A model generated the notes under the pieces. The model searched no databases. It saw only the letters and a list, made by a program, of their open reading frames with translations, and had not been told where the DNA came from. From Formosa sp. Hel1_33_131 (lineage in GTDB: Bacteria; Bacteroidota; Bacteroidia; Flavobacteriales; Flavobacteriaceae): DNA of 32,000 nucleotides. How positions within the stretch are numbered: position 1 is the first letter of the stretch; every line of letters begins with the position of its first letter. The stretch covers positions 2,490,001-2,522,000 of the forward strand of contig NZ_CP017260.1 in the NCBI RefSeq assembly GCF_001735745.1, written 5' to 3'. Positions 8,801-19,877 of the stretch are shown here, piece by piece. Both the position numbers and the translations under genes were made by a program.

Positions 8801-8984
8801 AATTAGATCAGAATGGGGCTTAGTACAACAGCCAAACAACACGTCTCCAGTAGGAGTGAGTGTTGATCCAGCAACTTTGGTACCAACTTATACATTCAAT
8901 CCGAACCAAACCGAAACATTTGGATACGATTCTAGTTTAGCATCAAGATGGCAAATGCAATTTGGATTGCGCTATATCTTCTAG
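5859..8984 (+). CDS. TonB-dependent outer-membrane receptor with an N-terminal carboxypeptidase-regulatory-like domain
   Basis: 1041 aa. Signal peptide, then a CarboxypepD_reg-like segment (GAISDETNTGLPGANVVAVHTPTGTTYGAATNIDGRFNLVNLRVGGPYTITVSYVGY), a plug and beta-barrel, and a C-terminal beta-signal ...QFGLRYIF*. Confidence 0.88.
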   Translation: MKQISTLLMFIFTCSLSFSQVTTSSIKGAISDETNTGLPGANVVAVHTPTGTTYGAATNIDGRFNLVNLRVGGPYTITVSYVGYKDQSFTDVFLTLGKTENLTLALTLDAGQLDAVVITANTSKGVFGSDRTGAETNVGRRELTTLPTISRSASDFTRLEPTASNGSFGGRNDQFNNFSLDGAIFNNPFGLDAATPGGQTNSQPVSLDAIDQIQVSTAPYDVTQSGFTGAAVNAVTKSGSNEFKGTVYGFYRNEDMTGSKIKGQEIFVPSLTQQQTGFSIGGPIVKNKLFFFANYEQDERSDLGQAWLPNTGSGAVNESVVLESDLIAVQNALSTLGYDTGTYQGFTHESASSKGIFKLDWNVNDNNQLAIIYNWLDASQEKPAHPSALGVRGPSATTLQFQNSGYQINNKLQSVQLELNSRLSDEVSNKLQVGYTNFDDFRNPMSSAAPAITIQNGAGQNYIIAGHEPFSVNNVLNQKVFQFSNNMTISKANHTYTVGFSFEKFEFDNSFNLGAYGYGNDDGYVGAFGAFGSMGDFLAASTNGLLSEALANAQTVKNADSWALAETNVGQLAFYLQDEWDVNDNFKLTYGLRFDKPLFFDSAQKAQEVIDVSFYQPEIPYVNPNTGEVQLLDSTQMPSNDWLVSPRVGFNYDVKGDSTIQLRGGSGLFTGRFPFVWLGNQIGNPNSYFYQMVDPDYKFPQVWRTNLGLDHKYDNGLILTADVSYTKDMNGAQVQNWGLTTPSGTLAGVDNRPYYTDADKINNAYVFTNSDKGRIWNASFKAQKTFDNGLYTMLAYSYLDSKDVNSIEAEITGDAFDFNPVVGDVNSDELSYSRYGDTHRLIGVVSKKWNYGTNKKWGTTLSTFFEYSRGGRFSYTYAGNINGDTSFQNNDLLYVPTSAEIQQMQFDPTGDPGQAAAFDNYIAQDDYLSGRRGQYAERYGAQAPWRGRWDVKFLQDYKIKISENKTNTIQFSVDVLNFGNLIRSEWGLVQQPNNTSPVGVSVDPATLVPTYTFNPNQTETFGYDSSLASRWQMQFGLRYIF

Positions 8985-9007
8985 TATTAATTCAATCTTA
9001 TTTTATA
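8956..9007 (+). repeat. att-like 52-bp segment, copy 1. It is the authentic 3' end of the receptor CDS plus a 22-bp core, attaattcaatcttattttata.
   Basis: Direct copies at 11233-11284 and 16249-16300. Copy 1 differs from copies 2 and 3 at 4 positions, all left of the 22-bp core. The core is identical in all three. Confidence 0.8.
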
Positions 9008-9186
9008 TAAATGCGTCCTAATTAGGGCGCATTTTTTTTGCATAGTGTAGTGATTTGTTATGTTGTATAAGCAACTAATTTAGTAAATACAAACTAAGTT
9101 TTAAACTAAAACTAGTTTTGTAAAAGTGTCTTTTTTAGCTCAGTTCTTTGTTACCACCACACGAAAGGATTCGTGCGGTAGCGGGG
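9008..9186 (+). repeat. Repeat X, copy 1 (conserved element end; contains the terminator hairpin and ends ...cacgaaaggattcgtgcggtagcgggg)
   Basis: Aligns without gaps to 11285-11463 with 2 mismatches by eye. Confidence 0.85.
9011..9039 (+). terminator. Rho-independent terminator after the receptor gene. It lies inside repeat X and recurs at 11288-11317.
   Basis: Stem atgcgtcct, loop aatt, stem agggcgcat, followed by a T8 run. Confidence 0.7.
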
Positions 9187-9210
9187 GAAAGGATTCGTGC
9201 GGTAGCGGGG
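9164..9210 (+). repeat. Tandem duplication (24 + 23 bp) of the terminal X motif aaaggattcgtgcggtagcgggg, exactly at the X/Y junction
   Basis: Copies at 9164-9187 and 9188-9210. The same motif is single-copy in X copy 2 (11441-11463). Confidence 0.9.
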
Positions 9211-9370
9211 TAACTGATTTTAGTACAAGCATCTTGCTTGCCCCCGCATCTATAATTCAAATAAAACAATCGCTTACAACGGGTCAAGCCGCTTATGAAG
9301 ATTTAGGGTCTAAAATCTATCAGATTTATGAAATAGTTTATAAACTTTAAAAAAAAGCATCAATTAATTT
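9211..9370 (+). repeat. Repeat Y, copy a (5' 160 bp only; more diverged)
   Basis: Aligns to 10997-11163 with a 7-bp indel (gatttag) and a few mismatches. Similarity stops at about 9370, where the truncated DUF1016 ORF begins. Confidence 0.8.
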
Positions 9371-9493
9371 ACCAAGTTCGAAATTTTGTCCAATATGGTA
9401 TTTGTTGAGTGATTTATATGCATTATATTTTGCAGAATTGATTGTATCAATTACTGCTTTAAAAAAATTATTATATGCTGTTAATTCACTCAT
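9347..9493 (-). pseudogene. N-terminal remnant (48 codons) of a DUF1016/YhcG-type PDDEXK nuclease gene, cut off at the Y-repeat boundary
   Basis: My own translation: MSELTAYNNFFKAVIDTINSAKYNAYKSLNKYHIGQNFELGKLIDAFF*. The pattern A.Y.A.K..N......(Y)WE(I)GK.I is typical of the N-terminus of proteins of about 350 aa in this family. The ORF is below the track size cut-off. Confidence 0.45.
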
Positions 9494-9508
9494 TCAGTTT
9501 GTTTATTA

Positions 9509-9568
9509 TCTCTCGCACACTTGTGAGAGAAATCATAAATACAAATTCTCGCACAACTGTGCGAGAAT
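9509..9568. promoter_or_regulatory. Two related palindromes: TCTCTCGCACAC/TTGTGAGAGA (9509-9530) and ATTCTCGCACA-ac-TGTGCGAGAAT (9545-9568)
   Basis: The second has perfect 11-bp arms. The two share the core TCTCGCACA..TGTG(C)GAGA and are 14 bp apart. They lie between the 57-aa ORF and the DUF1016 remnant and could be an operator pair or a terminator pair. Confidence 0.4.
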
Positions 9569-9601
9569 TTAAACATCAGTTTTTCTTTCTTAAAAACGCG
9601 A

Positions 9602-9775
9602 TTATTTACAAATTGTAATATATGCTGTTGGCATCCACCATAGATTTACACCAAACGCAACAGTTATTATTTCATATCCGTCATTTGATTTTTTGTTAAT
9701 TAAAATTTCAACATTTCTCCTTAATGTATTTGTTGACCACATCTCACTAATTTTAATTATTTCATATTTTTTCAT
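9602..9775 (-). CDS. Small hypothetical protein (57 aa), possibly DUF4177-like; cassette-borne
   Basis: My own translation: MKKYEIIKISEMWSTNTLRRNVEILINKKSNDGYEIITVAFGVNLWWMPTAYITICK*. It starts 53 nt after the cassette boundary at 9829. Its 3' end contains ATGCCAAC (9634-9627), the complement of the cassette start GTTGGCAT. It is below the track cut-off. Confidence 0.5.
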   Translation of the reverse strand: MKKYEIIKISEMWSTNTLRRNVEILINKKSNDGYEIITVAFGVNLWWMPTAYITICK

Positions 9776-9822
9776 AAATATTTCTTTTAGTTCTTGAATT
9801 CAGGTTTCAGTTTTTTAATAAA

Positions 9823-9957
9823 TGCCAACGTGTTCGTGTATGGTTAGTTGCGTTGGCTAGCAACTAAATTAGTAAAAGAAAACGAACCAGAGGGAAATCC
9901 GCTAGGATTTTCCGAGTACACACAGAATCAGCAATTAATTATACACGTTGTTAGTGG
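9823..9957 (-). other. attC-like recombination site A (135 bp), downstream of the TIR gene
   Basis: Read on the minus strand: CCACTAAC-aa-CGTGTAT ... internal hairpins (ggaaaatcc/ggatttcc, ttagttgc/gcaactaa) ... ATACACG-aacac-GTTGGCA. This has the R''-L''...L'-R' architecture of integron attC sites. Confidence 0.5.
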
Positions 9958-10044
9958 TAGTATTAATTTCGGGTTGCTTCATTAAAACTTTCTTCAATTC
10001 GTATGTTCAATGTTAATAAATTCCTTAAAATTTTAATTATGTTT

Positions 10045-10896
10045 TTATTTTAAATTATCATCAACCAGGTCTGCAAGTTTAACGTATATTTCTTCTCGAT
10101 CATTTTCATTTAACTTGCTTAACGGGTTCTTTGGGTCATTTAGGGATTGAAATTTGCTTAAAGTTGGAGTAGAAGTAAATCTACAAGGTTTAACAATAAT
10201 TGGAATAATTCTTTTTCCTTTCTCCTCTGCTGCTTTTAATAAAGGAGGTAATTCATTGTCAACAATAAAGTCCGAAGCCAGAAAATCTGCGCTTATAAGC
10301 AGAATAGCTATAGATGCTTTATCTAAAGCCTTGTCTATCTCCATTTTCCATTGATCTCCAGCATTTATTTTGGTATCAATCCAAAGATCAATTTGACCAC
10401 TTTTAATAAAAGGTTTAAGATGTACGGTTAGTCTATCAATTGTGTTTGAGTCCTTATGACTGTAACTTATAAAAACACTTTTAGTTATATTCTTTTCTTT
10501 CTTAATGAATTTTTTTACAGCTGCTGAAGTTTTATTTTTCTTCAGATAATTATCTAATGGAATAATTAATGTTTCATCTAACCTAAGTCTATCGTAATAA
10601 ATGGAGAAATATTTTTCTAGAAATGAACTGCTTTCTGATGTTATAAGAATAATTGGTTTTTCAAAAGCTCTTGCAATTGCAAATTCGCTAGTTAAATTTC
10701 CTTCATTCTCAGACACATCAACTATCACTAAGTCTGAATTTTTTATTTCTTCTCTGACTAATTCTTCAGTTTCACCTGCGTTTAAAAGGTCTTCATGGGT
10801 GCTCAGTGTATGACCCGCTGCTACAACGACATTGTTTACTTTGCTTAAAACGTCTTGATAGCTTGAATTATACCTGAATGCTAAAAATATTTTCAT
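10045..10896 (-). CDS. TIR-domain protein with an N-terminal nucleoside 2-deoxyribosyltransferase-like/TIR-like Rossmannoid domain (candidate NADase-type defence effector)
   Basis: The C-terminal half (VFISYSHKDSNTIDRL...ILLISADFLASDFIVDNELPPLL...IIPIIV) is a bacterial TIR domain with the conserved Glu in context. The N-terminal half (MKIFLAF...DLVIVDVSENEGNLTSEFAIARAFEKPIILI) resembles the NDT motif D.GT..E.G.A...KP. Confidence 0.85.
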   Translation of the reverse strand: MKIFLAFRYNSSYQDVLSKVNNVVVAAGHTLSTHEDLLNAGETEELVREEIKNSDLVIVDVSENEGNLTSEFAIARAFEKPIILITSESSSFLEKYFSIYYDRLRLDETLIIPLDNYLKKNKTSAAVKKFIKKEKNITKSVFISYSHKDSNTIDRLTVHLKPFIKSGQIDLWIDTKINAGDQWKMEIDKALDKASIAILLISADFLASDFIVDNELPPLLKAAEEKGKRIIPIIVKPCRFTSTPTLSKFQSLNDPKNPLSKLNENDREEIYVKLADLVDDNLK

Positions 10897-10911
10897 AGTT
10901 TGTTTTTATTA

Positions 10912-10996
10912 CCACTAACTCGTTATATGTCAACAAAAGGGTGTGTTAACGGTTATATATTCCGGGATAACACAATGTTTTAGTTGTTATTATTCG
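10912..10996 (-). other. Site B: attI-like or half-attC junction site between repeat Y and the TIR cassette. It ends (minus strand) ...CATATAAcgaGTTAGTGG.
   Basis: About 70% identical by eye to site D (15932-16024). It shares the ...AAC-n2-GTTATATG end with sites A and C but lacks their other end. It contains a direct GTTATAT repeat (10922 and 10952). Confidence 0.4.
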
Positions 10997-11232
10997 TAAC
11001 TGATTTTAGTACAAGCATCTTGCTTGCCCCCGCATCTATAATTCAAATAAAACAATCGCTTACAACGGGTCAAGCTGCTTATGAAGATTTAGATTTGGGG
11101 TCTAAAATCTATCAAACTTATGAAATAGTTTATAAACTTTAAAAAAAAGTATCCATTAATTTATGTAAACAGCTGTAAATAAATCAATTTTATTAATTTA
11201 CAGTCGCATGGTTCACTTAAAACTTGAATTTT
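10997..11232 (+). repeat. Repeat Y, copy b (full length)
   Basis: 11009-11284 matches 16025-16300 at 275 of 276 positions by eye (single difference tcaagc/ttaagc). Contains hairpins caagca-tct-tgcttg and ctgtaaat...atttacag. Confidence 0.9.
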
Positions 11233-11284
11233 TGCAATTTGGATTACGGTCTATCTTCTAGCATTAATTCAATCTTATTTTATA
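11233..11284 (+). repeat. att-like 52-bp segment, copy 2 (decoy receptor 3' end ...QFGLRSIF* plus the 22-bp core)
   Basis: Identical to copy 3 (16249-16300). Flanked on the left by Y and on the right by X, the junction expected between tandem elements (equivalent to attP). Confidence 0.8.
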
Positions 11285-11463
11285 TAAATGCGTCCTAATT
11301 AGGGCGCATTTTTTTTGCATTGTGTAGTGATTTGTTATGTTGTATAAGCACCTAATTTAGTAAATACAAACTAAGTTTTAAACTAAAACTAGTTTTGTAA
11401 AAGTGTCTTTTTTAGCTCAGTTCTTTGTTACCACCACACGAAAGGATTCGTGCGGTAGCGGGG
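11285..11463 (+). repeat. Repeat X, copy 2
   Basis: See X copy 1. It ends at gcgggg (11463), directly abutting the truncated methyltransferase ORF. Confidence 0.85.
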
Positions 11464-11640
11464 ATCGCTTATTATTTCTTTACTTTTATCTTCAACCAAC
11501 ACTGGTAATTCTCTTTCGCATTGCTCAGCAATTTCTTCAGGTTTGTCTTCCCAAACTAAACCGTACCGTTTTTTCTCTAATTGCTGTAATTTGGCAATGA
11601 GTTGTTCTTTACTATAATTATCGTATTTATTCTTTGCCAT
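11428..11640 (-). pseudogene. N-terminal fragment of a DNA methyltransferase gene (type III Mod or type IIG-like), truncated at the end of repeat X
   Basis: MAKNKYDNYSKEQLIAKLQQLEKKRYGLVWEDKPEEIAEQCERELPVLVEDKSKEIISD resembles the N-termini of such methyltransferases (YGLVWEDK motif). After codon 59 the reading frame runs into repeat X (PRYRTNPFVWW*). The ATG directly follows the abiEii stop. Confidence 0.55.
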
Positions 11641-12708
11641 TTATGCTGTTTTTATTTCGTAAATCTTGAACCAATAAAAAAATGCTTCAGGATTAGATTT
11701 TTTAAGTTTGTTTAGTTTGTTGTTCATTGGTTCGTTTATTTGCCATTCTTTCATTTGTATTTGGGTGTCATACTTTTCAATTTCTGTTTTCTCATATTTT
11801 ATTAATGTGATGAGATAAGCTGTTTTAGATGCTTGAGTAATTGCTTTTTCAATATGATAACTTTCAGAAAAAATATAAGCTCGTATTCTTTGTATTCCCA
11901 ACTGTAATTCTTCGAAATTCCCTATTCCATCTATTCCTCTACTTGCAATACAAAGGGAAGTTTGGTAAATATCTTCAATTACATCTTGTTCATTACAATC
12001 ATTAATATTTCTGTATGACAATTCAGTTTTTGCAAATTGGTAAAATGTGTTTTTTATAATATTTAAGTCAATTACTTTATCAAATAAATTCCCTACATCA
12101 TATAATTGCTTTATGATTTCCATACTCATACTGTTTTCACTTTTAAAGTATGGTATTCCTGTGGTATTGGGAGCAAAGGCAGTGAGCTTGTCTCCCAAAA
12201 TATCTTCCAAACAGGGAAGGTTTACAAGTAATGGTTTGTTAATAATCGGTACAAAATTAGATTCTATAGGCAGTTGGATTATTTTTTTGTAATCCGCCTT
12301 TTCAAATAATATATCAAGTAAAATATAATCTTCTGTTTTGTTTGATTTATGAAATGGAGTGTAGTAGAATTTAAAATGTGCTTTTGTGATTTTTGAATTT
12401 GTGTTTCGGTGTTGTAATTCTTTTCGTAAAAAACCTTGCTCGGTTGCCAAAGAATCTAATATGTCGTTTAGCCCAATATCCTCTTTAGGCAAAATAATAT
12501 CAATGTCAATAGAAAGTCTTTTAGTAGAATTGAAATGTAACATTAAAGCAGTTCCTCCTTTGAATACAAAGTCCAATTTTTGTTTCACAAGACCTTCTAA
12601 TAGAATCAATGCTCGAATAACCTTTTCGACAAGAATTTTATCAGCATTTTTATTTGCTTTTGAAACCTGATTAATCCATTTTATTGATATTTCTTTTTGA
12701 TTTATCAT
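11641..12708 (-). CDS. abiEii: AbiEii/AbiGii-family nucleotidyltransferase toxin (type IV TA / abortive infection)
   Basis: 355 aa. Contains FVFKGGTALMLHFNSTKRLSIDIDIILP, the DUF1814/AbiEii NTase signature. Located immediately downstream of an AbiEi-like gene. Confidence 0.85.
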   Translation of the reverse strand: MINQKEISIKWINQVSKANKNADKILVEKVIRALILLEGLVKQKLDFVFKGGTALMLHFNSTKRLSIDIDIILPKEDIGLNDILDSLATEQGFLRKELQHRNTNSKITKAHFKFYYTPFHKSNKTEDYILLDILFEKADYKKIIQLPIESNFVPIINKPLLVNLPCLEDILGDKLTAFAPNTTGIPYFKSENSMSMEIIKQLYDVGNLFDKVIDLNIIKNTFYQFAKTELSYRNINDCNEQDVIEDIYQTSLCIASRGIDGIGNFEELQLGIQRIRAYIFSESYHIEKAITQASKTAYLITLIKYEKTEIEKYDTQIQMKEWQINEPMNNKLNKLKKSNPEAFFYWFKIYEIKTA

Positions 12709-12756
12709 AAACTATAAATTGGCAGTAAATTAATTTTGTTGCCGTAAATTAGAATT
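12709..12756. promoter_or_regulatory. Operator-like site 1: aaactataaat + core TGGCAGTAAATTAATTTTGTTGCCG + taa + attagaatt. It overlaps the abiEi stop and the abiEii start region.
   Basis: 26 nt (12719-12744) are the exact reverse complement of 13512-13537, yet the flanks aaactataaat and attagaatt are in direct orientation at both sites. Confidence 0.5.
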
Positions 12757-13434
12757 AATATATGTTTTAAGTTCTTCTTTTTTTCCTCTCCTGTTGGCAT
12801 AACGTAACAACTTACTTTTATTGATTGAGTATTTTGAAAAAGCTTCATTATAAATAGTTCTCATTTCATTACCTTGATATGCCGAAAAGATGATTTCATC
12901 ACAAAAAACATCTACTAATATTTTTTCTAAAGAAGAAGTGTTTATTCCATCTATGTTTTGTGTAGGAGCTTCAGTTATTAGTGTTTTAACAATTATTAAA
13001 TTATTGTTCTCTGTTATGTATTTTTCAAAAACATCTTTTGAAGGTTCTAAAAAGACTGAGTATTTGTTTTCTTTTAAATAAAGAAATATGGCTTGTGTTG
13101 CTTCTTTCTCAACTTCAATTAATAAATAGAATTGATTGGCTTGATGCAGGGTAAATTCATTAAGAATAGAAGAATTCCAGATGCAAGATTCTAAATATGG
13201 AAAATGTTTTTTTATTTTTTTACTTAGAATTTTTTCTTTTGAAGAAATCTCAGGAATAAAATAATTCATTGCTCCAAGAGTAAATATTCCTTTTCCAATT
13301 CGTTTAAGAACACCTTGTTTTATCAAAGTAAATACTCGCCAATTGATAGTCGTTTGACTAATATTGGGTTCAAACCCTTTAAAGAAATTAGCAATGTCAG
13401 TTGTTTCAAAGCTTTTTCGATTTTTGAAAAACAT
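12730..13434 (-). CDS. abiEi: AbiEi-family antitoxin/transcriptional regulator
   Basis: 234 aa. N-terminal winged-helix-like segment (FETTDIANFF...TINWRVFTLIKQGVLKRIGKGIFTLG) and operon partner of AbiEii. Confidence 0.8.
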   Translation of the reverse strand: MFFKNRKSFETTDIANFFKGFEPNISQTTINWRVFTLIKQGVLKRIGKGIFTLGAMNYFIPEISSKEKILSKKIKKHFPYLESCIWNSSILNEFTLHQANQFYLLIEVEKEATQAIFLYLKENKYSVFLEPSKDVFEKYITENNNLIIVKTLITEAPTQNIDGINTSSLEKILVDVFCDEIIFSAYQGNEMRTIYNEAFSKYSINKSKLLRYANRRGKKEELKTYINSNLRQQN

Positions 13435-13500
13435 TGTTAATTTTTCAATATGTAACTTGTCTTTAGCGATAGTATTTCTTTTTAACTCAGCAAATGTACA

Positions 13501-13548
13501 AAACTATAAATCGGCAACAAAATTAATTTACTGCCAATTATTAGAATT
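13501..13548. promoter_or_regulatory. Operator-like site 2 in the abiEi promoter region (same flanks, inverted core)
   Basis: See site 1. On the minus strand this site is followed by TAGTTTTG and TACATTTG, both matching the TAnnTTTG -7 consensus, upstream of the abiEi ATG. Confidence 0.5.
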
Positions 13549-13780
13549 CTGTTAGCGTGGGGAAGATTAAGCTCTTTTGGTTTTTATGTGTTGGCTTTTG
13601 TGTAGGCAAAAACCAAATGTGCTTAATGTGCGGCTGGCTTTTTTCGGTATGAAACACAACGTGTTTGTATATGGAAAGTTGCGTGTTTGCGTGCGAGGAT
13701 TTTCCGTAGGAAAATCAGACGTAGCAAACGTGCAACGACCTTTGTTTAAGCCAAAACCAGCAATTTTTTATATACAGTGT

Positions 13781-15499
13781 GCCTGTTGCACAACTATTTA
13801 TGATAAAACTACAAAATAAGTTTTAAATTTTCATAAAAATTCTTAAATTTATGGATGCAAGGAAAAAAGACCTACCAAGAAAAGCTGTTTGCTTGCTTTA
13901 GTTTGAGCGAACGGATACCAAAAGATAATTTTTATCGCCAGTTAGGAAACGTTTTAGAATTAGAATATTTGTATCGCTTGACGCGTTCTTATTATGGGAC
14001 AAGTGGACAAAAAAGCGTAGATCCCGTAGTTTTTTTCAAACTGTGTTTGGTCGGATATTTAGAAAACATCATTAGCGATCGCAAATTGATATCCCATTGC
14101 AGTATGCGTATGGATATTTTGTATTTCCTCGGCTATGACATCGATGATGAACTTCCATGGCATTCAACGATCAGTCGTACACGTCAGTTGTTTCCCGAAA
14201 GCCTGTTTGAAGAGGCCTTTACCAAAGTGTTAGAATTATGTATTTCCAAAGGCATGGTCAGCGGTCACACCCAAACCATCGACTCAGCCCCAGTAAAAGC
14301 CAATGCATCCATGGACAGTTTAGAGCTCAAAGTTCCCAAAGAAGACTTAGAAACACACTTGCATCAGCTCCGTCATATCAGCCGAATGGATAAGCCCCAT
14401 CGTCAAGCCAAAGACAATAAAGCCCCTAAAACCCAACAAACCCTTAGTGCCAATAAGCAAGAACTAGGCGCAATAAAGAGTCGCAACAAGAAATGGTCAA
14501 ACGACCAAGACCAGCGACCCGGTGCAGGGAACAAAGGCAGTAAATACACCAGTAATAAGACCCATTACAGTCCCACCGACCCCGATGCCCGAATCAGTGT
14601 AAAACCAGGCAAAGCCAGAAAGCTCAATTATATGAGTCAACTTAGTGTGGACACCGCCCATCATGTCATCACCGACATCCAAGCCTACCATGCCGATAAG
14701 AAAGACAATCAATACTTGCAAGATATCGTAAAACGATTAGACAAGCGTTTATGGAAACAAGGATTACTATGGCAAAACTGTGTCGCCGACACAGGATATA
14801 GCAGTGGCGAGAACTATGCCTTTTTAGAAGGCGTCAACAAACAAAGTTTCATTCCTCCGCATGGCACCTACAAAGGTGGTCCCGAGGGATTTGTTTACCA
14901 TAAAAAAGAGGATCATTACGTATGTCCACAAGGGGAAGTGATTCCCTTCAAAAAAGTATTTAACGATTATAGAACCCACACGAGAAAGAAAGAATACCGC
15001 GGTTCGACCAAACAATGCAAAGGCTGTCCAATAGCACTCCAATGCTTGGGGAAAACAGCCAAAGAAAAGAAGTTTTCAGTGACCTATTACCGAGAGGAAT
15101 ATGAGCGAAACAATGCCCGAGTGCACAGCAAACAAGGACGCTTTATGAAACGCAAACGTCAAAGCACCGTAGAACCTGTTTTTGGAACACTCACTCAGTT
15201 TATGGGCCTGAGAAAGATCAACACCCTTGGCATACAACAAGCCAACAAAGTCATGCACTTATCTGCGATGGCTTACAACCTGAAAAAGTATCTAAAATTC
15301 ACTCAGAAACTGGCAAGAAGTGAGGCGAAATCACTTGGGGTTGTTTTTTTAGAAATAACCCTCTTTATAAAGGTGTTTTGGTCTTGTGTAAGCCCCTCAA
15401 AAAAACAAAATAGCACACTCATTTTTTAATAATACATCCTGTAAATCGGCTTAAAAAGGAAGGTTTTTTACTTTTTTAGAGGGCTTGTGCAACGGTTAC
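13781..15499 (+). mobile_element. IS1182-family insertion sequence (about 1.72 kb)
   Basis: A single transposase ORF. Imperfect terminal inverted repeats centred on GTTGCACAA (13786-13794; reverse complement at 15486-15494). Flanking 6-bp direct repeat CAGTGT (13775-13780 and 15500-15505). Confidence 0.75.
13855..15429 (+). CDS. IS1182-family (IS5-like DDE) transposase
   Basis: 524 aa. N-terminal DUF772-type domain (SVDPVVFFKLCLVGYLENIISDRKLISHCSMRMDILYFLGYDIDDELPWHSTISRTR) and a C-terminal DDE region (CVADTGYSSGENY...VEPVFGTLTQFMGLRKINTLG). Confidence 0.88.
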   Translation: MQGKKTYQEKLFACFSLSERIPKDNFYRQLGNVLELEYLYRLTRSYYGTSGQKSVDPVVFFKLCLVGYLENIISDRKLISHCSMRMDILYFLGYDIDDELPWHSTISRTRQLFPESLFEEAFTKVLELCISKGMVSGHTQTIDSAPVKANASMDSLELKVPKEDLETHLHQLRHISRMDKPHRQAKDNKAPKTQQTLSANKQELGAIKSRNKKWSNDQDQRPGAGNKGSKYTSNKTHYSPTDPDARISVKPGKARKLNYMSQLSVDTAHHVITDIQAYHADKKDNQYLQDIVKRLDKRLWKQGLLWQNCVADTGYSSGENYAFLEGVNKQSFIPPHGTYKGGPEGFVYHKKEDHYVCPQGEVIPFKKVFNDYRTHTRKKEYRGSTKQCKGCPIALQCLGKTAKEKKFSVTYYREEYERNNARVHSKQGRFMKRKRQSTVEPVFGTLTQFMGLRKINTLGIQQANKVMHLSAMAYNLKKYLKFTQKLARSEAKSLGVVFLEITLFIKVFWSCVSPSKKQNSTLIF

Positions 15500-15520
15500 C
15501 AGTGTTGGCAATAGTATTTT

Positions 15521-15892
15521 TTATTCAGTTAGATTTTCCGTTATAGATTTCAGAGTTTCAATTTTCGGCATTTCTGTAATTTCAGATTCTCCATCTATTG
15601 AGTAAAATTCCAATTCAGTCGGCATTTGGTCAGTTCCGAATACAGATATTCCAATTAATTCTCCGTTTTTACCTTTTCCATCGTAATCTATTATTAAATT
15701 CCCTTTTTGAATTTCCGAGTCAAATGTTTTTCCAAATATTATAGTCGGACATTTTCCGCAACCACATCTCGCAATAACTTTCAGATTTCCGATTAAATTA
15801 GTCCACTCCGATTTTTCTTTTCCAAACAGATAAGTCAGAAATTCAATTTCGGATTTTGTCAATGCTCTTTTATCTGGAATGCTATATTTCAT
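15521..15892 (-). CDS. Hypothetical cassette protein (123 aa) with a CGCGKC motif
   Basis: An intact ORF that is the only coding sequence in a cassette of about 554 bp (excluding IS and TSD) bounded by sites D and C. I do not recognise the family. Confidence 0.6.
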   Translation of the reverse strand: MKYSIPDKRALTKSEIEFLTYLFGKEKSEWTNLIGNLKVIARCGCGKCPTIIFGKTFDSEIQKGNLIIDYDGKGKNGELIGISVFGTDQMPTELEFYSIDGESEITEMPKIETLKSITENLTE

Positions 15893-15931
15893 TAATCAAA
15901 TTGTTCATTTTTTTACGTTCCGTTGATATTA

Positions 15932-16024: not shown

Positions 16025-16248
16025 GTACAAGCATCTTGCTTGCCCCCGCATCTATAATTCAAATAAAACAATCGCTTACAACGGGTTAAGCTGCTTATGA
16101 AGATTTAGATTTGGGGTCTAAAATCTATCAAACTTATGAAATAGTTTATAAACTTTAAAAAAAAGTATCCATTAATTTATGTAAACAGCTGTAAATAAAT
16201 CAATTTTATTAATTTACAGTCGCATGGTTCACTTAAAACTTGAATTTT
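16025..16248 (+). repeat. Repeat Y, copy c
   Basis: Together with the att segment that follows, it matches copy b at 275 of 276 positions. It lacks the first 12 nt of Y (taactgatttta). Confidence 0.9.
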
Positions 16249-16300
16249 TGCAATTTGGATTACGGTCTATCTTCTAGCATTAATTCAATCTTATTTTATA
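16249..16300 (+). repeat. att-like 52-bp segment, copy 3 (attR-like); followed by unique chromosomal sequence aatttgcacactgcaaatagg
   Basis: Identical to copy 2. Homology to X is absent to its right. Confidence 0.8.
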
Positions 16301-19787: not shown

Positions 19788-19803
19788 CTTTGATTATCTA
19801 GTA

Positions 19804-19877
19804 GCGAGAGCGGGGCACGATCCCGCGACCTCCGGGTTATGAATCCGACGCTCTAACCAGCTGAGCTACCTCGCCAT
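19804..19877 (-). tRNA. tRNA with a CAT anticodon (Met, or Ile2 if lysidine-modified); 74 nt, no encoded CCA
   Basis: Minus strand: GGCGAGG-TA-GCTCAGCTGGTTAGAGC-G-TCGGA-TTCATAA-CCCGG-AGGTC-GCGGG-ATCGTGC-CCCGC-TCTCGCT-A. This folds as a cloverleaf. The acceptor stem has G1.U72 and G7.U66. Confidence 0.85.

What the first reader, a model, noticed from the sequence alone, without database searches (positions are those of the whole stretch)
10045..10896. Single-gene cassette encoding a nucleoside-2-deoxyribosyltransferase-like/TIR fusion
Seen in sequence: this 283-aa ORF is the only coding sequence in its cassette. The C-terminal half is a bacterial TIR domain that retains the glutamate context typical of NAD-cleaving TIRs (ADFLASDFIVDNEL). 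The N-terminal half has a second Rossmannoid module whose motif (EGNLTSEFAIARAFEKPIILI) resembles the NDT-family D.GT..E.G.A..KP signature. Established knowledge: TIR NADases act as effectors or signal generators in Thoeris, CBASS, Pycsar and prokaryotic Argonaute systems. NDT/SLOG-fold domains are nucleotide-binding or nucleotide-processing modules in conflict systems. Inference: this is a self-contained sensor-effector, or an NAD/nucleotide-modifying abortive-infection protein. There is no adjacent ThsA-like or cyclase partner, so it does not fit the canonical multi-gene TIR systems.
Basis: partly seen in the sequence, partly recalled or inferred. Interest (0 to 1): 0.7.

Follow-up and report, generated by a model that had tools for sequence, protein, structure and literature searches.

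The report
Stand-alone NDT-like plus TIR gene
A marine Formosa bacterium carries, in a small strain-specific island, one gene that joins a nucleoside-deoxyribosyltransferase-like domain to a TIR domain with an intact NAD-cleaving site. It belongs to a widespread, uncharacterised family of lone genes that most likely acts like other one-protein TIR defences by destroying NAD in infected cells, though nobody has tested this.

Summary
The ORF is real: window 10045-10896, minus strand, 283 aa, and both quoted motifs are present. It is FORMB_24260 / WP_069677608.1 of Formosa sp. Hel1_33_131.

**Domains.** The C-terminal half is a TIR_2 domain (75 bits). Its catalytic Glu215 is invariant in 78 of 78 family members. 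The N-terminal 135 aa have an NDT/DNPH1-type fold, supported by Pfam PF05014 hits in 28 of 35 relatives, by PDB profile hits to Rcl/DNPH1, and by Foldseek top hits to NDTs. This domain keeps the nucleophile Glu71 in 68 of 78 members but lacks the NDT general-acid Asp.

**Partners.** No partner gene is conserved in 35 loci from about ten phyla. There is no ThsA, cyclase, Argonaute or retron reverse transcriptase.

**Setting.** The gene lies in a low-GC, 6.8-kb strain-specific island with AbiE, an IS and gene fragments. In 92%-identical relatives this island is replaced by other cargo. The "single-gene cassette" claim holds only roughly: the repeat-bounded segment also holds a 57-aa ORF and a truncated DUF1016 gene.

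**Best reading.** An autonomous TIR NADase effector of the SpbK type, with the NDT-like domain as regulator, oligomeriser or second glycosidase. Function is inferred, not shown. I rate it a new variant of a known kind, of moderate interest.

The parts
10045..10896 (-). Gene for the 283-aa NDT-like/TIR protein (FORMB_24260, AOR29444.1 / WP_069677608.1), stop codon included
   Evidence: ORF list. An exact-sequence look-up names Formosa sp. Hel1_33_131. At least 120 full-length homologue clusters were found.
10492..10896 (-). Residues 1-135: NDT/DrHyd-fold Rossmannoid domain (about residues 1-100) plus two linker helices (103-135)
   Evidence: AF2 model of the N-domain has pLDDT 87 and pTM 0.83. 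Foldseek PDB top hits are NDTs, DNPH1 and BcmB, with TM up to 0.69. The best BFVD hit is a CMP/hydroxymethyl-CMP hydrolase at 4.5e-6. 28 of 35 relatives hit PF05014. The domain profile hits Rcl/DNPH1 in the PDB at 1.5e-5.
10684..10686 (-). Codon of Glu71, which aligns with the nucleophile Glu of Rcl/DNPH1 (YELG)
   Evidence: HMMER alignment to Rcl. Glu is present in 68 of 78 family members.
10048..10485 (-). Residues 138-283: TIR domain with a conserved C-terminal extension
   Evidence: Pfam TIR_2 at 75 bits, plus TIR and ThsB_TIR. PADLOC ThsB model at 3e-24. The nearest solved relatives are AbTir and PdTIR. About 30 residues are invariant in 78 sequences.
10252..10254 (-). Codon of Glu215, the predicted catalytic Glu of the TIR domain (DNEL)
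   Evidence: Invariant in 78 of 78 members. It aligns with the Glu of AbTir 'NYEL'.
9210..9371 (+). Direct repeat B1, the lower boundary of the segment that holds the gene
   Evidence: 93% identical to 10996-11163. It cuts off the DUF1016 gene at 9361-9371 relative to contig L001.
10996..11163 (+). Direct repeat B2, the upper boundary of the segment. It continues as B-linker-A up to 11463.
   Evidence: Positions 11009-11284 are 99.6% identical to 16025-16300.
9602..9775 (-). 57-aa ORF downstream of the gene on the same strand. It is not a conserved partner.
   Evidence: Also called as a gene on L001. tblastn finds it near no other family member. It has only a weak DUF4177 hit, E 0.03. A terminator-like hairpin follows at 9542-9571.
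9361..9493 (-). 5' remnant (44 codons) of a DUF1016/YhcG gene
   Evidence: L001 carries the intact 350-aa gene (PF17761 and PF06250) at this position. Homology with the window stops at 9361.
9096..15926 (.). Strain-specific low-GC island that holds the gene. It lies between the TonB-dependent receptor gene and the DUF6495/HisRS genes.
   Evidence: The TARA contigs L093 and L094 are 92% identical in both flanks but carry a different 1.5-kb insert. GC is 0.27-0.31 inside the island against 0.36-0.40 in the flanks. Contents: AbiEii, AbiEi, a type III MTase fragment and an IS transposase.

Best explanation
The gene encodes an autonomous, single-polypeptide NAD-consuming effector of the TIR class.

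Residues 138-283 form a catalytically competent TIR domain with Glu215. Residues 1-135 form an NDT/DrHyd-fold domain plus a helical linker. That N-terminal part controls the TIR domain by dimerising or oligomerising it and/or by binding a nucleotide or phage-derived cue.

In the resting state the TIR domain is inactive. On infection the N-domain drives TIR self-association, which builds the composite TIR active site. NAD+ is then hydrolysed or converted, and the cell arrests or dies before phage is released. This is the scheme shown for SpbK (N-domain, linker, TIR; 267 aa).

Shown here: the domain identities, the catalytic-residue conservation, the absence of any partner gene, and the location in a strain-specific island next to AbiE.

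Inferred: NADase activity, the trigger, and the defence phenotype.
For: - **TIR domain.** TIR_2 scores 75 bits. Glu215 and about 30 other TIR residues are invariant in 78 non-redundant family members. The fold matches AbTir, PdTIR, SARM1 and SPARTA TIRs, and sequence matches AbTir.
- **N-domain.** It has the NDT/DNPH1 fold.
- **N-domain Glu is dispensable.** It is lost in 10 of 78 members while the TIR Glu is never lost. The NDT general-acid Asp is absent. This fits a mainly regulatory or scaffolding role.
- **NDT-fold proteins dimerise.** NDT-fold enzymes are obligate dimers, and the retron Ec86 NDT-like domain serves as a dimerisation scaffold.
- **No conserved neighbour.** None was found in 35 loci, large or small ORFs.
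- **Modular TIR.** The same TIR subtype is fused elsewhere to HTH, HARE-HTH, cyclase, FGE-sulfatase and STAND modules, as expected of a modular effector.
- **Island context.** AbiEi/AbiEii, an IS and an MTase remnant lie alongside, GC is low, and the island is absent from 92%-identical relatives.
- **Precedents.** Lone-gene TIR NADase defences exist: SpbK (PMC11984713), Swarozyc, and 37.5% of tested E. coli TIR proteins (PMC11350192).
Against: - There is no experimental datum for any family member.
- Many homologues lie between housekeeping genes, and only a minority of the 114 immediate neighbours hit defence models.
- The TIR domain is unusually conserved, 55-60% identity across phyla, which is not typical of fast-evolving immune proteins.
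- The N-domain keeps its Glu in 87% of members. Its closest relatives occupy output-domain positions after GAF, PAS or REC domains. That argues for an enzyme rather than a sensor.
- No homologue was found on phages, and no full-length homologue on plasmids, so mobility is only indirectly supported.
Confidence: 0.45

Rival explanations
1. Dual N-glycosidase. Both domains are enzymes. The TIR domain cleaves NAD+, and the NDT-like domain cleaves or base-exchanges a second nucleotide (NAD+, a dNMP/NMP or an ADPR derivative). The protein would then be a two-headed nucleotide-pool depleter or a two-step synthase of a nucleotide product.
For: - Glu71 aligns with the Rcl/DNPH1 nucleophile and is kept in 68 of 78 members. 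D60, S/T62, Y101 and R103 are also conserved.
- The N-domain clade is very large, with 13,436 representatives at E<=1e-10. It sits C-terminal to GAF arrays, REC and PP2C domains or next to PAS, which is the position of output enzymes. It often occurs as tandem pairs, 62 of the top 148.
- NDT-like retron effectors are active glycosidases.
- The literature treats DrHyd and TIR domains as interchangeable effectors or signal generators (PMC9503650, PMC7159879).
Against: - The general-acid Asp of NDT/DNPH1 aligns to Val47 in this protein and to Leu in a relative.
- 13% of members have lost the Glu.
- The window protein's N-domain does not reach PF05014 at all.
Confidence: 0.25
2. Orphan ThsB-like signal generator. 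The TIR domain makes a cADPR-type or ADPR-conjugate signal that is read by an effector encoded elsewhere in the genome.
For: The best PADLOC match is a ThsB model (3e-24), and Pfam ThsB_TIR is above threshold. The nearest solved relative, AbTir, makes a cyclic ADPR isomer (my own knowledge, not tested here).
Against: - No SIR2, SLOG, Macro or other ThsA-like gene is adjacent in the window or recurrent in 35 loci. One locus has a cpYpsA SLOG neighbour, 1 of 114 proteins.
- TIR-first relatives (L032, L043, L052) also lack ThsA.
- Defence signalling pairs are normally linked.
Confidence: 0.1
3. Not a phage-defence gene. It is instead an NAD/nucleotide-signalling or stress-response enzyme, or a Tcp-like TIR protein used against other cells. 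It would sit in the island by chance.
For: - Neighbourhoods are often housekeeping.
- The TIR sequence is very strongly conserved across phyla.
- The N-domain clade is mostly attached to signal-transduction domains: GAF, PAS, REC, PP2C.
- No hit was found in phage genomes.
Against: - The distribution is patchy: 280 of 185,579 species representatives carry the TIR subtype.
- The gene is absent from the same locus in 92%-identical relatives.
- AbiE and an IS are co-located.
- The product begins directly with the first strand of the N-domain fold (residues 2-6 in the model), so it has no apparent N-terminal signal sequence. No signal-peptide predictor was run.
Confidence: 0.15

Closest known systems
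SpbK of Bacillus subtilis ICEBs1, a single-protein TIR abortive-infection NADase (PMC11984713)
   Same: Both are one gene with no partner. Both are about 270-280 aa, built as N-terminal domain, helical linker and C-terminal TIR, with an essential catalytic Glu. Both are carried in accessory DNA.
   Different: The SpbK N-domain (94 aa) is a portal-protein binder with no reported NDT fold. Here the N-domain is an NDT/DrHyd-fold Rossmannoid module that mostly keeps a catalytic-type Glu. No sequence relationship was tested, and the trigger is unknown.
Thoeris ThsB (TIR signal generator)
   Same: The TIR domain gives the best PADLOC hit (ThsB model, 3e-24) and passes Pfam ThsB_TIR.
   Different: No ThsA effector is adjacent in the window or in 35 homologous loci. 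The hit covers only the TIR half.
AbTir / PdTIR-type bacterial TIR proteins (PDB 7uwg, 8g83, 3h16)
   Same: They are the closest solved TIR structures by sequence (E 3.5e-4) and by fold, and the motif around the catalytic Glu is shared.
   Different: Those proteins have coiled-coil N-termini. At the position of the AbTir Trp just before the Glu, this family has an invariant Phe210. The identity of that Trp is from the alignment; its functional meaning is my recollection and was not tested.
NDT / DNPH1 (Rcl) / MilB-BcmB N-glycosidases (Pfam PF05014)
   Same: The fold is the same (Foldseek TM 0.55-0.69). The motif D-x(10)-YELG-x-A-x(4)-KP is shared, with the nucleophile Glu in register.
   Different: The general-acid Asp is missing. 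The window protein does not reach the Pfam model. The Glu is lost in 13% of family members. The domain is fused to a TIR domain.
Retron Ec86/Eco1 NDT-like effector
   Same: It is an NDT-like domain used in anti-phage defence as both a glycosidase and a dimerisation scaffold.
   Different: The retron effector needs a reverse transcriptase and msDNA. Neither is present here, and no PADLOC retron model matched.
Swarozyc (DUF4062 TIR-like single-gene NADase defence, bioRxiv 10.64898/2026.05.01.722283)
   Same: It is a lone gene that pairs a TIR/NDT-class NADase domain with an auxiliary domain and acts by abortive infection through NAD+ depletion.
   Different: It belongs to a different family: there is no DUF4062 hit here. 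The catalytic domain is N-terminal there, and this protein carries two TIR/NDT-class domains.

Membership tests
TIR domain (Pfam TIR_2 PF13676 / TIR PF01582) | Profile match above the curated cut-off | tested here: met
   TIR_2 scores 75 bits against a cut-off of 28. TIR scores 43.3 against 21.3.
TIR domain (Pfam TIR_2 PF13676 / TIR PF01582) | Catalytic glutamate of NADase-type TIRs | tested here: met
   Glu215 aligns with the Glu of AbTir 'NYEL'. It is invariant in 78 of 78 family members.
TIR domain (Pfam TIR_2 PF13676 / TIR PF01582) | NAD+ cleavage activity | not testable with these tools
   This needs an enzyme assay.
Nucleoside 2-deoxyribosyltransferase / DNPH1 family (PF05014) | Profile match of this protein above the curated cut-off | tested here: not met
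   The window protein has no PF05014 hit at E<=1. 28 of 35 relatives' N-domains do hit it, best 3e-9. A profile of the family hits Rcl/DNPH1 in the PDB at 1.5e-5.
Nucleoside 2-deoxyribosyltransferase / DNPH1 family (PF05014) | NDT-type Rossmannoid fold | tested here: met
   Foldseek against the PDB gives CtNDT at 2.4e-5, BpNDT at TM 0.68, DNPH1 at TM 0.69 and BcmB at TM 0.65. The BFVD top hits are CMP/hmCMP hydrolase and NDTs. TIR folds score only slightly lower.
Nucleoside 2-deoxyribosyltransferase / DNPH1 family (PF05014) | Nucleophile Glu (LlNDT E98, Rcl E93) | tested here: met
   Glu71 is in register with Rcl 'GYELG'. It is present in 68 of 78 family members.
Nucleoside 2-deoxyribosyltransferase / DNPH1 family (PF05014) | General-acid Asp (Rcl D69, human DNPH1 D80) | tested here: not met
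   In the HMMER alignments, the Rcl residue that differs between wild-type and mutant chains (D, A or N in 'IHEQxLNW') aligns to a non-conserved hydrophobic position. That position is Val47 in the window protein and Leu in P0189.
Nucleoside 2-deoxyribosyltransferase / DNPH1 family (PF05014) | Tyr after strand 1 that hydrogen-bonds the Glu and enforces 2'-deoxy specificity | tested here: inconclusive
   No alignment reached the N-terminus. By motif (Y-x-A-x-P against F-L-x-x-P) the position would be Phe4, which is F in 60 of 78 members and Y in 7 of 78. This register rests on my memory of the NDT motif.
Thoeris | ThsB-type TIR protein | tested here: met
   PADLOC ThsB model PDLC00420 scores 3e-24 over residues 140-279. 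Pfam ThsB_TIR scores 25.4 bits against a cut-off of 21.2.
Thoeris | Adjacent ThsA effector (SIR2-SLOG, Macro-TM or similar) | tested here: not met
   None is in the window. No recurrent neighbour was found in 35 loci.
CBASS / Pycsar TIR effectors | Adjacent cyclase, and a cyclic-nucleotide sensor domain (SAVED, STING, cNMP-binding) fused to the TIR | tested here: not met
   There is no cyclase gene in the window. PADLOC SAVED-TIR and effector models match only the TIR part. The N-domain is NDT-like, not SAVED or STING.
SPARTA (short pAgo / TIR-APAZ) | APAZ domain and adjacent short Argonaute | tested here: not met
   PADLOC Aga_TIR models match only weakly (E about 2e-3) and over the TIR region only. 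No Argonaute ORF is in the window.
Retron with NDT-like effector | Adjacent reverse transcriptase and ncRNA | tested here: not met
   No reverse transcriptase ORF is in the window. Rfam finds only a tRNA. The NCBIfam retron-TIR model matches only the TIR region, 23.7 bits against a cut-off of 600.
Single-protein TIR abortive-infection systems (SpbK type) | One gene; N-terminal non-TIR domain, linker and C-terminal NADase TIR | tested here: met
   The architecture comes from the AF2 model: strands and helices 2-100, linker helices 103-135, TIR 139-282. The SpbK layout is from PMC11984713.
Single-protein TIR abortive-infection systems (SpbK type) | Activation by a phage component and protection against phage | not testable with these tools
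   This needs phage challenge and co-expression experiments.
PADLOC candidate PDC-S66 | Full-length match to the 282-position model | tested here: inconclusive
   The hit scores 8.7e-11 but covers only residues 127-233 against model positions 137-240. Total length and TIR position are similar, but the N-terminal half does not align.

The most novel reading that the evidence does not exclude
The NDT/DNPH1-like domain is a built-in small-molecule sensor. Its solved relatives specifically recognise hydroxymethylated pyrimidine nucleotides: DNPH1 acts on 5-hm-dUMP and MilB/BcmB act on hm-CMP. By analogy it could bind a phage-specific or infection-specific (deoxy)nucleotide, such as a hypermodified dNMP or a DNA-degradation product, and switch on the fused TIR NADase. 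That would be a one-protein metabolite-sensing immune receptor. It would also hint at a function for the thousands of uncharacterised tandem NDT-like modules found in bacterial signalling proteins.
Probability: 0.1. Interest if true: 0.8.

Novelty: new variant of a known kind. Interest (0 to 1): 0.45.

Why it matters
TIR NADases are central to immunity in bacteria, plants and animals, and single-gene versions are attractive because sensing and killing sit in one chain. This family is widespread: at least 120 clusters at 90% identity, in about ten phyla. It has no entry of its own among the PADLOC-DB models, whose matches cover only its TIR half, and I found no paper that describes it.

It pairs the TIR domain with a second domain of the same TIR-DrHyd-SLOG class. 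That raises a testable question: does an NDT-fold domain act as a nucleotide sensor, as a dimerisation scaffold, or as a second glycosidase?

The N-domain belongs to a very large and mostly unstudied clade. More than 13,000 representative proteins match at E<=1e-10, they often carry tandem copies, and many are wired to GAF, PAS, REC, Roc-COR or CHAT modules. A result here would therefore carry over to many other proteins.

If the protein is simply another TIR NADase, the gain is one more defence family for marine Flavobacteriia, whose phage defences are poorly charted.

Tried and rejected
- **Conserved partner gene.** All-against-all BLASTP of ORFs of at least 70 aa in 36 loci found no shared neighbour family. 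Clustering ORFs of 35-130 aa within 1.2 kb of the gene found none either. The 57-aa ORF next to the window gene occurs only in the near-identical contig L001, so it is rejected as a partner.
- **Defence-island enrichment.** 114 immediate neighbours were scanned as a pooled set against PADLOC and Pfam. The result was scattered single hits (mad3, PDC-S35, AriA/GajA-like ATPase, AbiLi, a DRT reverse transcriptase, Schlafen AlbA_2, cpYpsA SLOG, a CAP12-type TIR) among many housekeeping families. The tool returns pooled counts only, so no per-locus statistic was possible.
- **ThsA next to TIR-first relatives** (L032, L043, L052): none found.
- **Phage or plasmid carriage.** There was no phage match. 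On plasmids there were only TIR-domain-only matches.
- **Rfam on the whole window**, to explain the repeats: only a tRNA was found.
- **Literature.** Searches for NDT-TIR or DrHyd-TIR fusions and for PDC-S66 found no description of this architecture. The 2015 Burroughs et al. paper, which may mention such fusions, is not held.
- **Promoter scan.** The sigma-70 type scan is not informative for Bacteroidota: 8 sites were found against 11.3 expected.
- **Model coordinates.** They are not exposed, so I could not check whether the conserved N-domain residues cluster in a pocket or how the two domains pack.
Full report
**What is there.** The window is part of the chromosome of Formosa sp. Hel1_33_131, a North Sea flavobacterium. 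Exact-sequence look-ups of four of its proteins return that organism, and the ORF in question is AOR29444.1 / WP_069677608.1 (FORMB_24260). It is annotated only as 'hypothetical' or 'TIR domain-containing'. The ORF runs 10045..10896 on the minus strand and encodes 283 aa.

**The C-terminal domain.**
- Pfam gives TIR_2 at 9.5e-21 (75 bits, cut-off 28) over residues 141-251, with TIR and ThsB_TIR also above threshold.
- PADLOC's best hit is a ThsB model (3e-24). This and every other PADLOC hit cover the TIR half only.
- The nearest solved relatives by sequence are AbTir and PdTIR (E 3.5e-4 to 2.4e-3). Glu215 of the DNEL motif aligns with the Glu of AbTir's NYEL.
- The full-length AF2 model (pLDDT 79, pTM 0.68) matches TIR structures of AbTir, PdTIR, TLR1, SARM1 and SPARTA.
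- In an alignment of 78 non-redundant family members, Glu215 and about 30 other TIR residues are invariant. They include S144, Y145, D149, R155, H159, W172, D174, W183, D204, F205, S208, F210 and E268.

**The N-terminal domain.**
- On its own, the window protein's N-half gives only marginal hits: SLOG cluster 4 at E 0.03-0.1 and TIR_2 at 0.027.
- The family as a whole resolves it. Of 35 relatives' N-domains, 28 hit Pfam Nuc_deoxyrib_tr PF05014 (best 3e-9). Fewer hit TIR_2 (8), CAP12-PCTIR_TIR (3) or SLOG (2).
- A profile of the domain finds Rcl/DNPH1 in the PDB at 1.5e-5, then T. brucei NDT and the CMP/hmCMP N-glycosidases BcmB and MilB.
- An AF2 model of residues 1-136 is confident (pLDDT 87, pTM 0.83).
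- Its best Foldseek PDB hits are NDTs (2.4e-5; BpNDT TM 0.68), DNPH1 (TM 0.69) and BcmB. SARM1-type TIRs follow close behind (TM about 0.66).
- Against viral structures, the top hit is a CMP/hydroxymethyl-CMP hydrolase (4.5e-6, TM 0.71), followed by NDTs.

**The N-domain catalytic apparatus is only partly NDT-like.** Glu71 is in register with the Rcl nucleophile in 'GYELG'. The Rcl general-acid Asp can be located because wild-type and mutant PDB chains differ there (D, A or N). It aligns to a non-conserved hydrophobic position, Val47 in this protein. Glu71 is present in 68 of 78 family members and is replaced by D, Q, I, L, N, R, A or M in the other ten. Those ten all keep the TIR Glu.

**The gene stands alone.**
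- The window has no SIR2, SLOG, Macro, cyclase, Argonaute or reverse transcriptase gene.
- The protein has at least 120 full-length homologue clusters of 273-306 aa at 43-99% identity.
- In the GTDB species set, 280 genomes carry the TIR subtype. About 30 of the best 80 carry the full NDT-TIR architecture. They come from Bacteroidota, Cloacimonadota, Desulfobacterota, Proteobacteria, Verrucomicrobiota, Armatimonadota, Acidobacteriota, Chlorobiota and Actinomycetota.
- In 36 loci with up to 8 kb of flank, all-against-all comparison finds no shared neighbour family. This holds for ORFs of 70 aa or more and for small ORFs within 1.2 kb.
- The 114 immediate neighbours are a mix of housekeeping genes and scattered defence-type genes. 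The latter include an AriA/GajA-like ATPase, AbiLi, mad3, PDC-S35, a DRT reverse transcriptase, Schlafen AlbA_2, one cpYpsA SLOG and one CAP12-type TIR (examples).
- No homologue is on a phage genome. Plasmids carry only TIR-only relatives.

**Both domains are modular.**
- The same highly conserved TIR subtype (55-60% identity across phyla) is fused in other genomes to other modules. These are HTH_31/HTH_3, two HARE-HTH domains, an adenylate/guanylate cyclase domain, an FGE-sulfatase domain, a second TIR plus a STAND NTPase, and several unassigned domains. The TIR sits at either end. TIR-first members also lack ThsA neighbours.
- The N-domain belongs to a very large clade: 31,662 representative proteins at E<=1e-3 and 13,436 at E<=1e-10.
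- Of the top 148, 62 carry two tandem copies, 9 carry this TIR, and the rest carry one copy.
- Fusion partners include PP2C/SpoIIE, GAF arrays, REC plus CHAT, Roc-COR, TPR, PAS and a PMT_2 membrane domain.
- This matches the published view that DrHyd (NDT-like) and TIR domains are interchangeable nucleotide-processing effector or signal-generator modules in conflict systems (PMC9503650, PMC7159879).

**Genomic setting.**
- The flanks are core genes: PriA, S6/S18/L9 and a TonB-dependent receptor on one side; DUF6495, HisRS and further housekeeping genes on the other.
- Between them, window 9096-15926 is a low-GC stretch, 0.27-0.31 against 0.36-0.40.
- Two TARA Oceans contigs, 92% identical in both flanks, carry a different 1.5-kb insert there. 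It holds a 327-aa and a 174-aa ORF of unassigned function.
- The island contains the NDT-TIR gene, a 57-aa ORF, a 44-codon remnant of a DUF1016/YhcG gene, a 70-aa N-terminal fragment of a type III methyltransferase, an AbiEi/AbiEii pair and an IS transposase.
- It is punctuated by three copies of a composite repeat that includes the last 29 nt of the receptor gene: 8956-9371, 10996-11463 and 16025-16300.
- The NDT-TIR segment is bounded by two 93%-identical copies of the 'B' part. The DUF1016 gene is cut exactly at one of them, whereas contig L001 (99.75% identical over 1,610 nt) has it intact.
- 'Cassette' is therefore a fair description of the layout, but 'single-gene' is not exact. No integrase is present.

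**How it most likely works.**
- The strict invariance of the TIR active site marks the TIR as the indispensable catalytic effector. So do the tolerated loss of the N-domain Glu, the missing general-acid Asp, and the fact that this TIR subtype is combined with many alternative partner domains.
- The N-domain is then the accessory module.
- NDT-fold proteins are obligate dimers, and the retron Ec86 NDT-like domain doubles as an assembly scaffold. TIR NADases need self-association to build their active site, as stated in PMC11984713.
- The simplest mechanism is that the N-domain dimerises or oligomerises the protein, constitutively or on binding a cue, and thereby licenses NAD+ cleavage by the TIR. 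The outcome is growth arrest or abortive infection.
- SpbK is a direct experimental precedent for this layout: 267 aa, N-domain, linker and TIR, with NADase activity switched on by a phage portal protein. Swarozyc and many E. coli TIR proteins are further lone-gene precedents.
- I give this reading 0.45.
- The main rival, at 0.25, is that the N-domain is itself a working glycosidase. It keeps Glu71 in 87% of members along with other polar residues, and its relatives sit in output-domain positions after sensory domains.
- An orphan ThsB-like signal generator (0.10) and a non-defence role (0.15) are not excluded.

**Novelty and value.** Both domains are known, and lone-gene TIR defences are known. 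New here is the specific pairing of an NDT-fold domain with a TIR in a partner-less, widespread family. The PADLOC-DB models match only its TIR half, so the family has no entry of its own there, and no paper I could search describes it. The link to a huge uncharacterised clade of NDT-like modules is also new. I rate it a new variant of a known kind, with interest 0.45.

Noticed in passing
window 8956-9371, 10996-11463, 16025-16300: There are three copies of a composite repeat. Part A (231 nt) starts with the last 29 nt of the TonB-dependent receptor gene plus its terminator hairpin. Part B (about 165 nt) and a 69-nt linker precede A in copies 2 and 3 but follow A in copy 1. Copies 2 and 3 are 99.6% identical over 276 nt. 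The layout resembles tandem insertions at the 3' end of the receptor gene, but no integrase is present.
   Followed up: partly
window 9096-15926; L093 and L094 (TARA contigs): The region between the receptor gene and DUF6495/HisRS is a variable hotspot. Relatives that are 92% identical in both flanks carry a different 1.5-kb insert (327-aa and 174-aa ORFs) in place of the 6.8-kb TIR/AbiE/IS island.
   Followed up: yes
window 9361-9493 (-); L001 1478-2530: A DUF1016/YhcG (PDDEXK-type) gene is truncated to its first 44 codons exactly at repeat B. It is intact (350 aa) on a 99.75%-identical metagenome contig.
   Followed up: yes
window 11428-11640 (-): A 70-aa ORF matches the N-terminal part (positions 37-76 of 528) of a PADLOC type III methyltransferase model. 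It runs into repeat A and looks like a remnant of a restriction-modification gene.
   Followed up: partly
window 11641-13434 (-), with arms at 12712-12744 and 13512-13544: There is an intact AbiEi (DUF6577) / AbiEii toxin-antitoxin pair. A 33-nt inverted repeat, 94% complementary, brackets the abiEi gene: one arm lies upstream of it and one lies between the two genes. These may be operator sites.
   Followed up: no
window 9163-9210 and 11440-11463: The 24-nt unit GAAAGGATTCGTGCGGTAGCGGGG occurs twice in tandem at the A/B junction of copy 1 and once at the end of A in copy 2. Its GCGGGG end can pair with CCCCGC in repeat B across an internal hairpin (CAAGCA-TCT-TGCTTG). Rfam finds nothing there.
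   Followed up: no
window 13855-15429 (+): An IS transposase (DUF772 plus DDE_Tnp_1_6) with GC of about 0.43, clearly higher than the rest of the island. A 123-aa ORF downstream (15521-15892, minus strand) has no family hit.
   Followed up: no
loci L039, L057, L070, L076, L091 and others: The same TIR subtype (core motif SADFLASDF...ELPPLL) is 55-60% identical across phyla. It is fused to HTH, HARE-HTH, cyclase, FGE-sulfatase, TIR plus STAND NTPase and unassigned domains, N- or C-terminally. 280 GTDB species genomes carry it.
   Followed up: partly
proteins P0121-P0268: The N-domain type is extremely common, with 13,436 representative proteins at E<=1e-10. It frequently occurs as tandem pairs, attached to GAF arrays, REC plus CHAT, PP2C, Roc-COR, TPR, PAS or a PMT_2 membrane domain. 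This clade of NDT-like modules appears largely uncharacterised.
   Followed up: partly
L011 and L012, 8957-10830: In one lineage the NDT-TIR gene is immediately followed by a 502-aa AAA_15/AAA_21 ATPase and a 120-aa ORF. This probably accounts for the AriA/GajA-like PADLOC hits in the pooled scan, which does not report hits per protein. It suggests a small defence islet there too.
   Followed up: no
window 19802-19875 (-): A tRNA gene is the only Rfam match in the window. It lies well outside the island and shows no sign of being an integration site.
   Followed up: no
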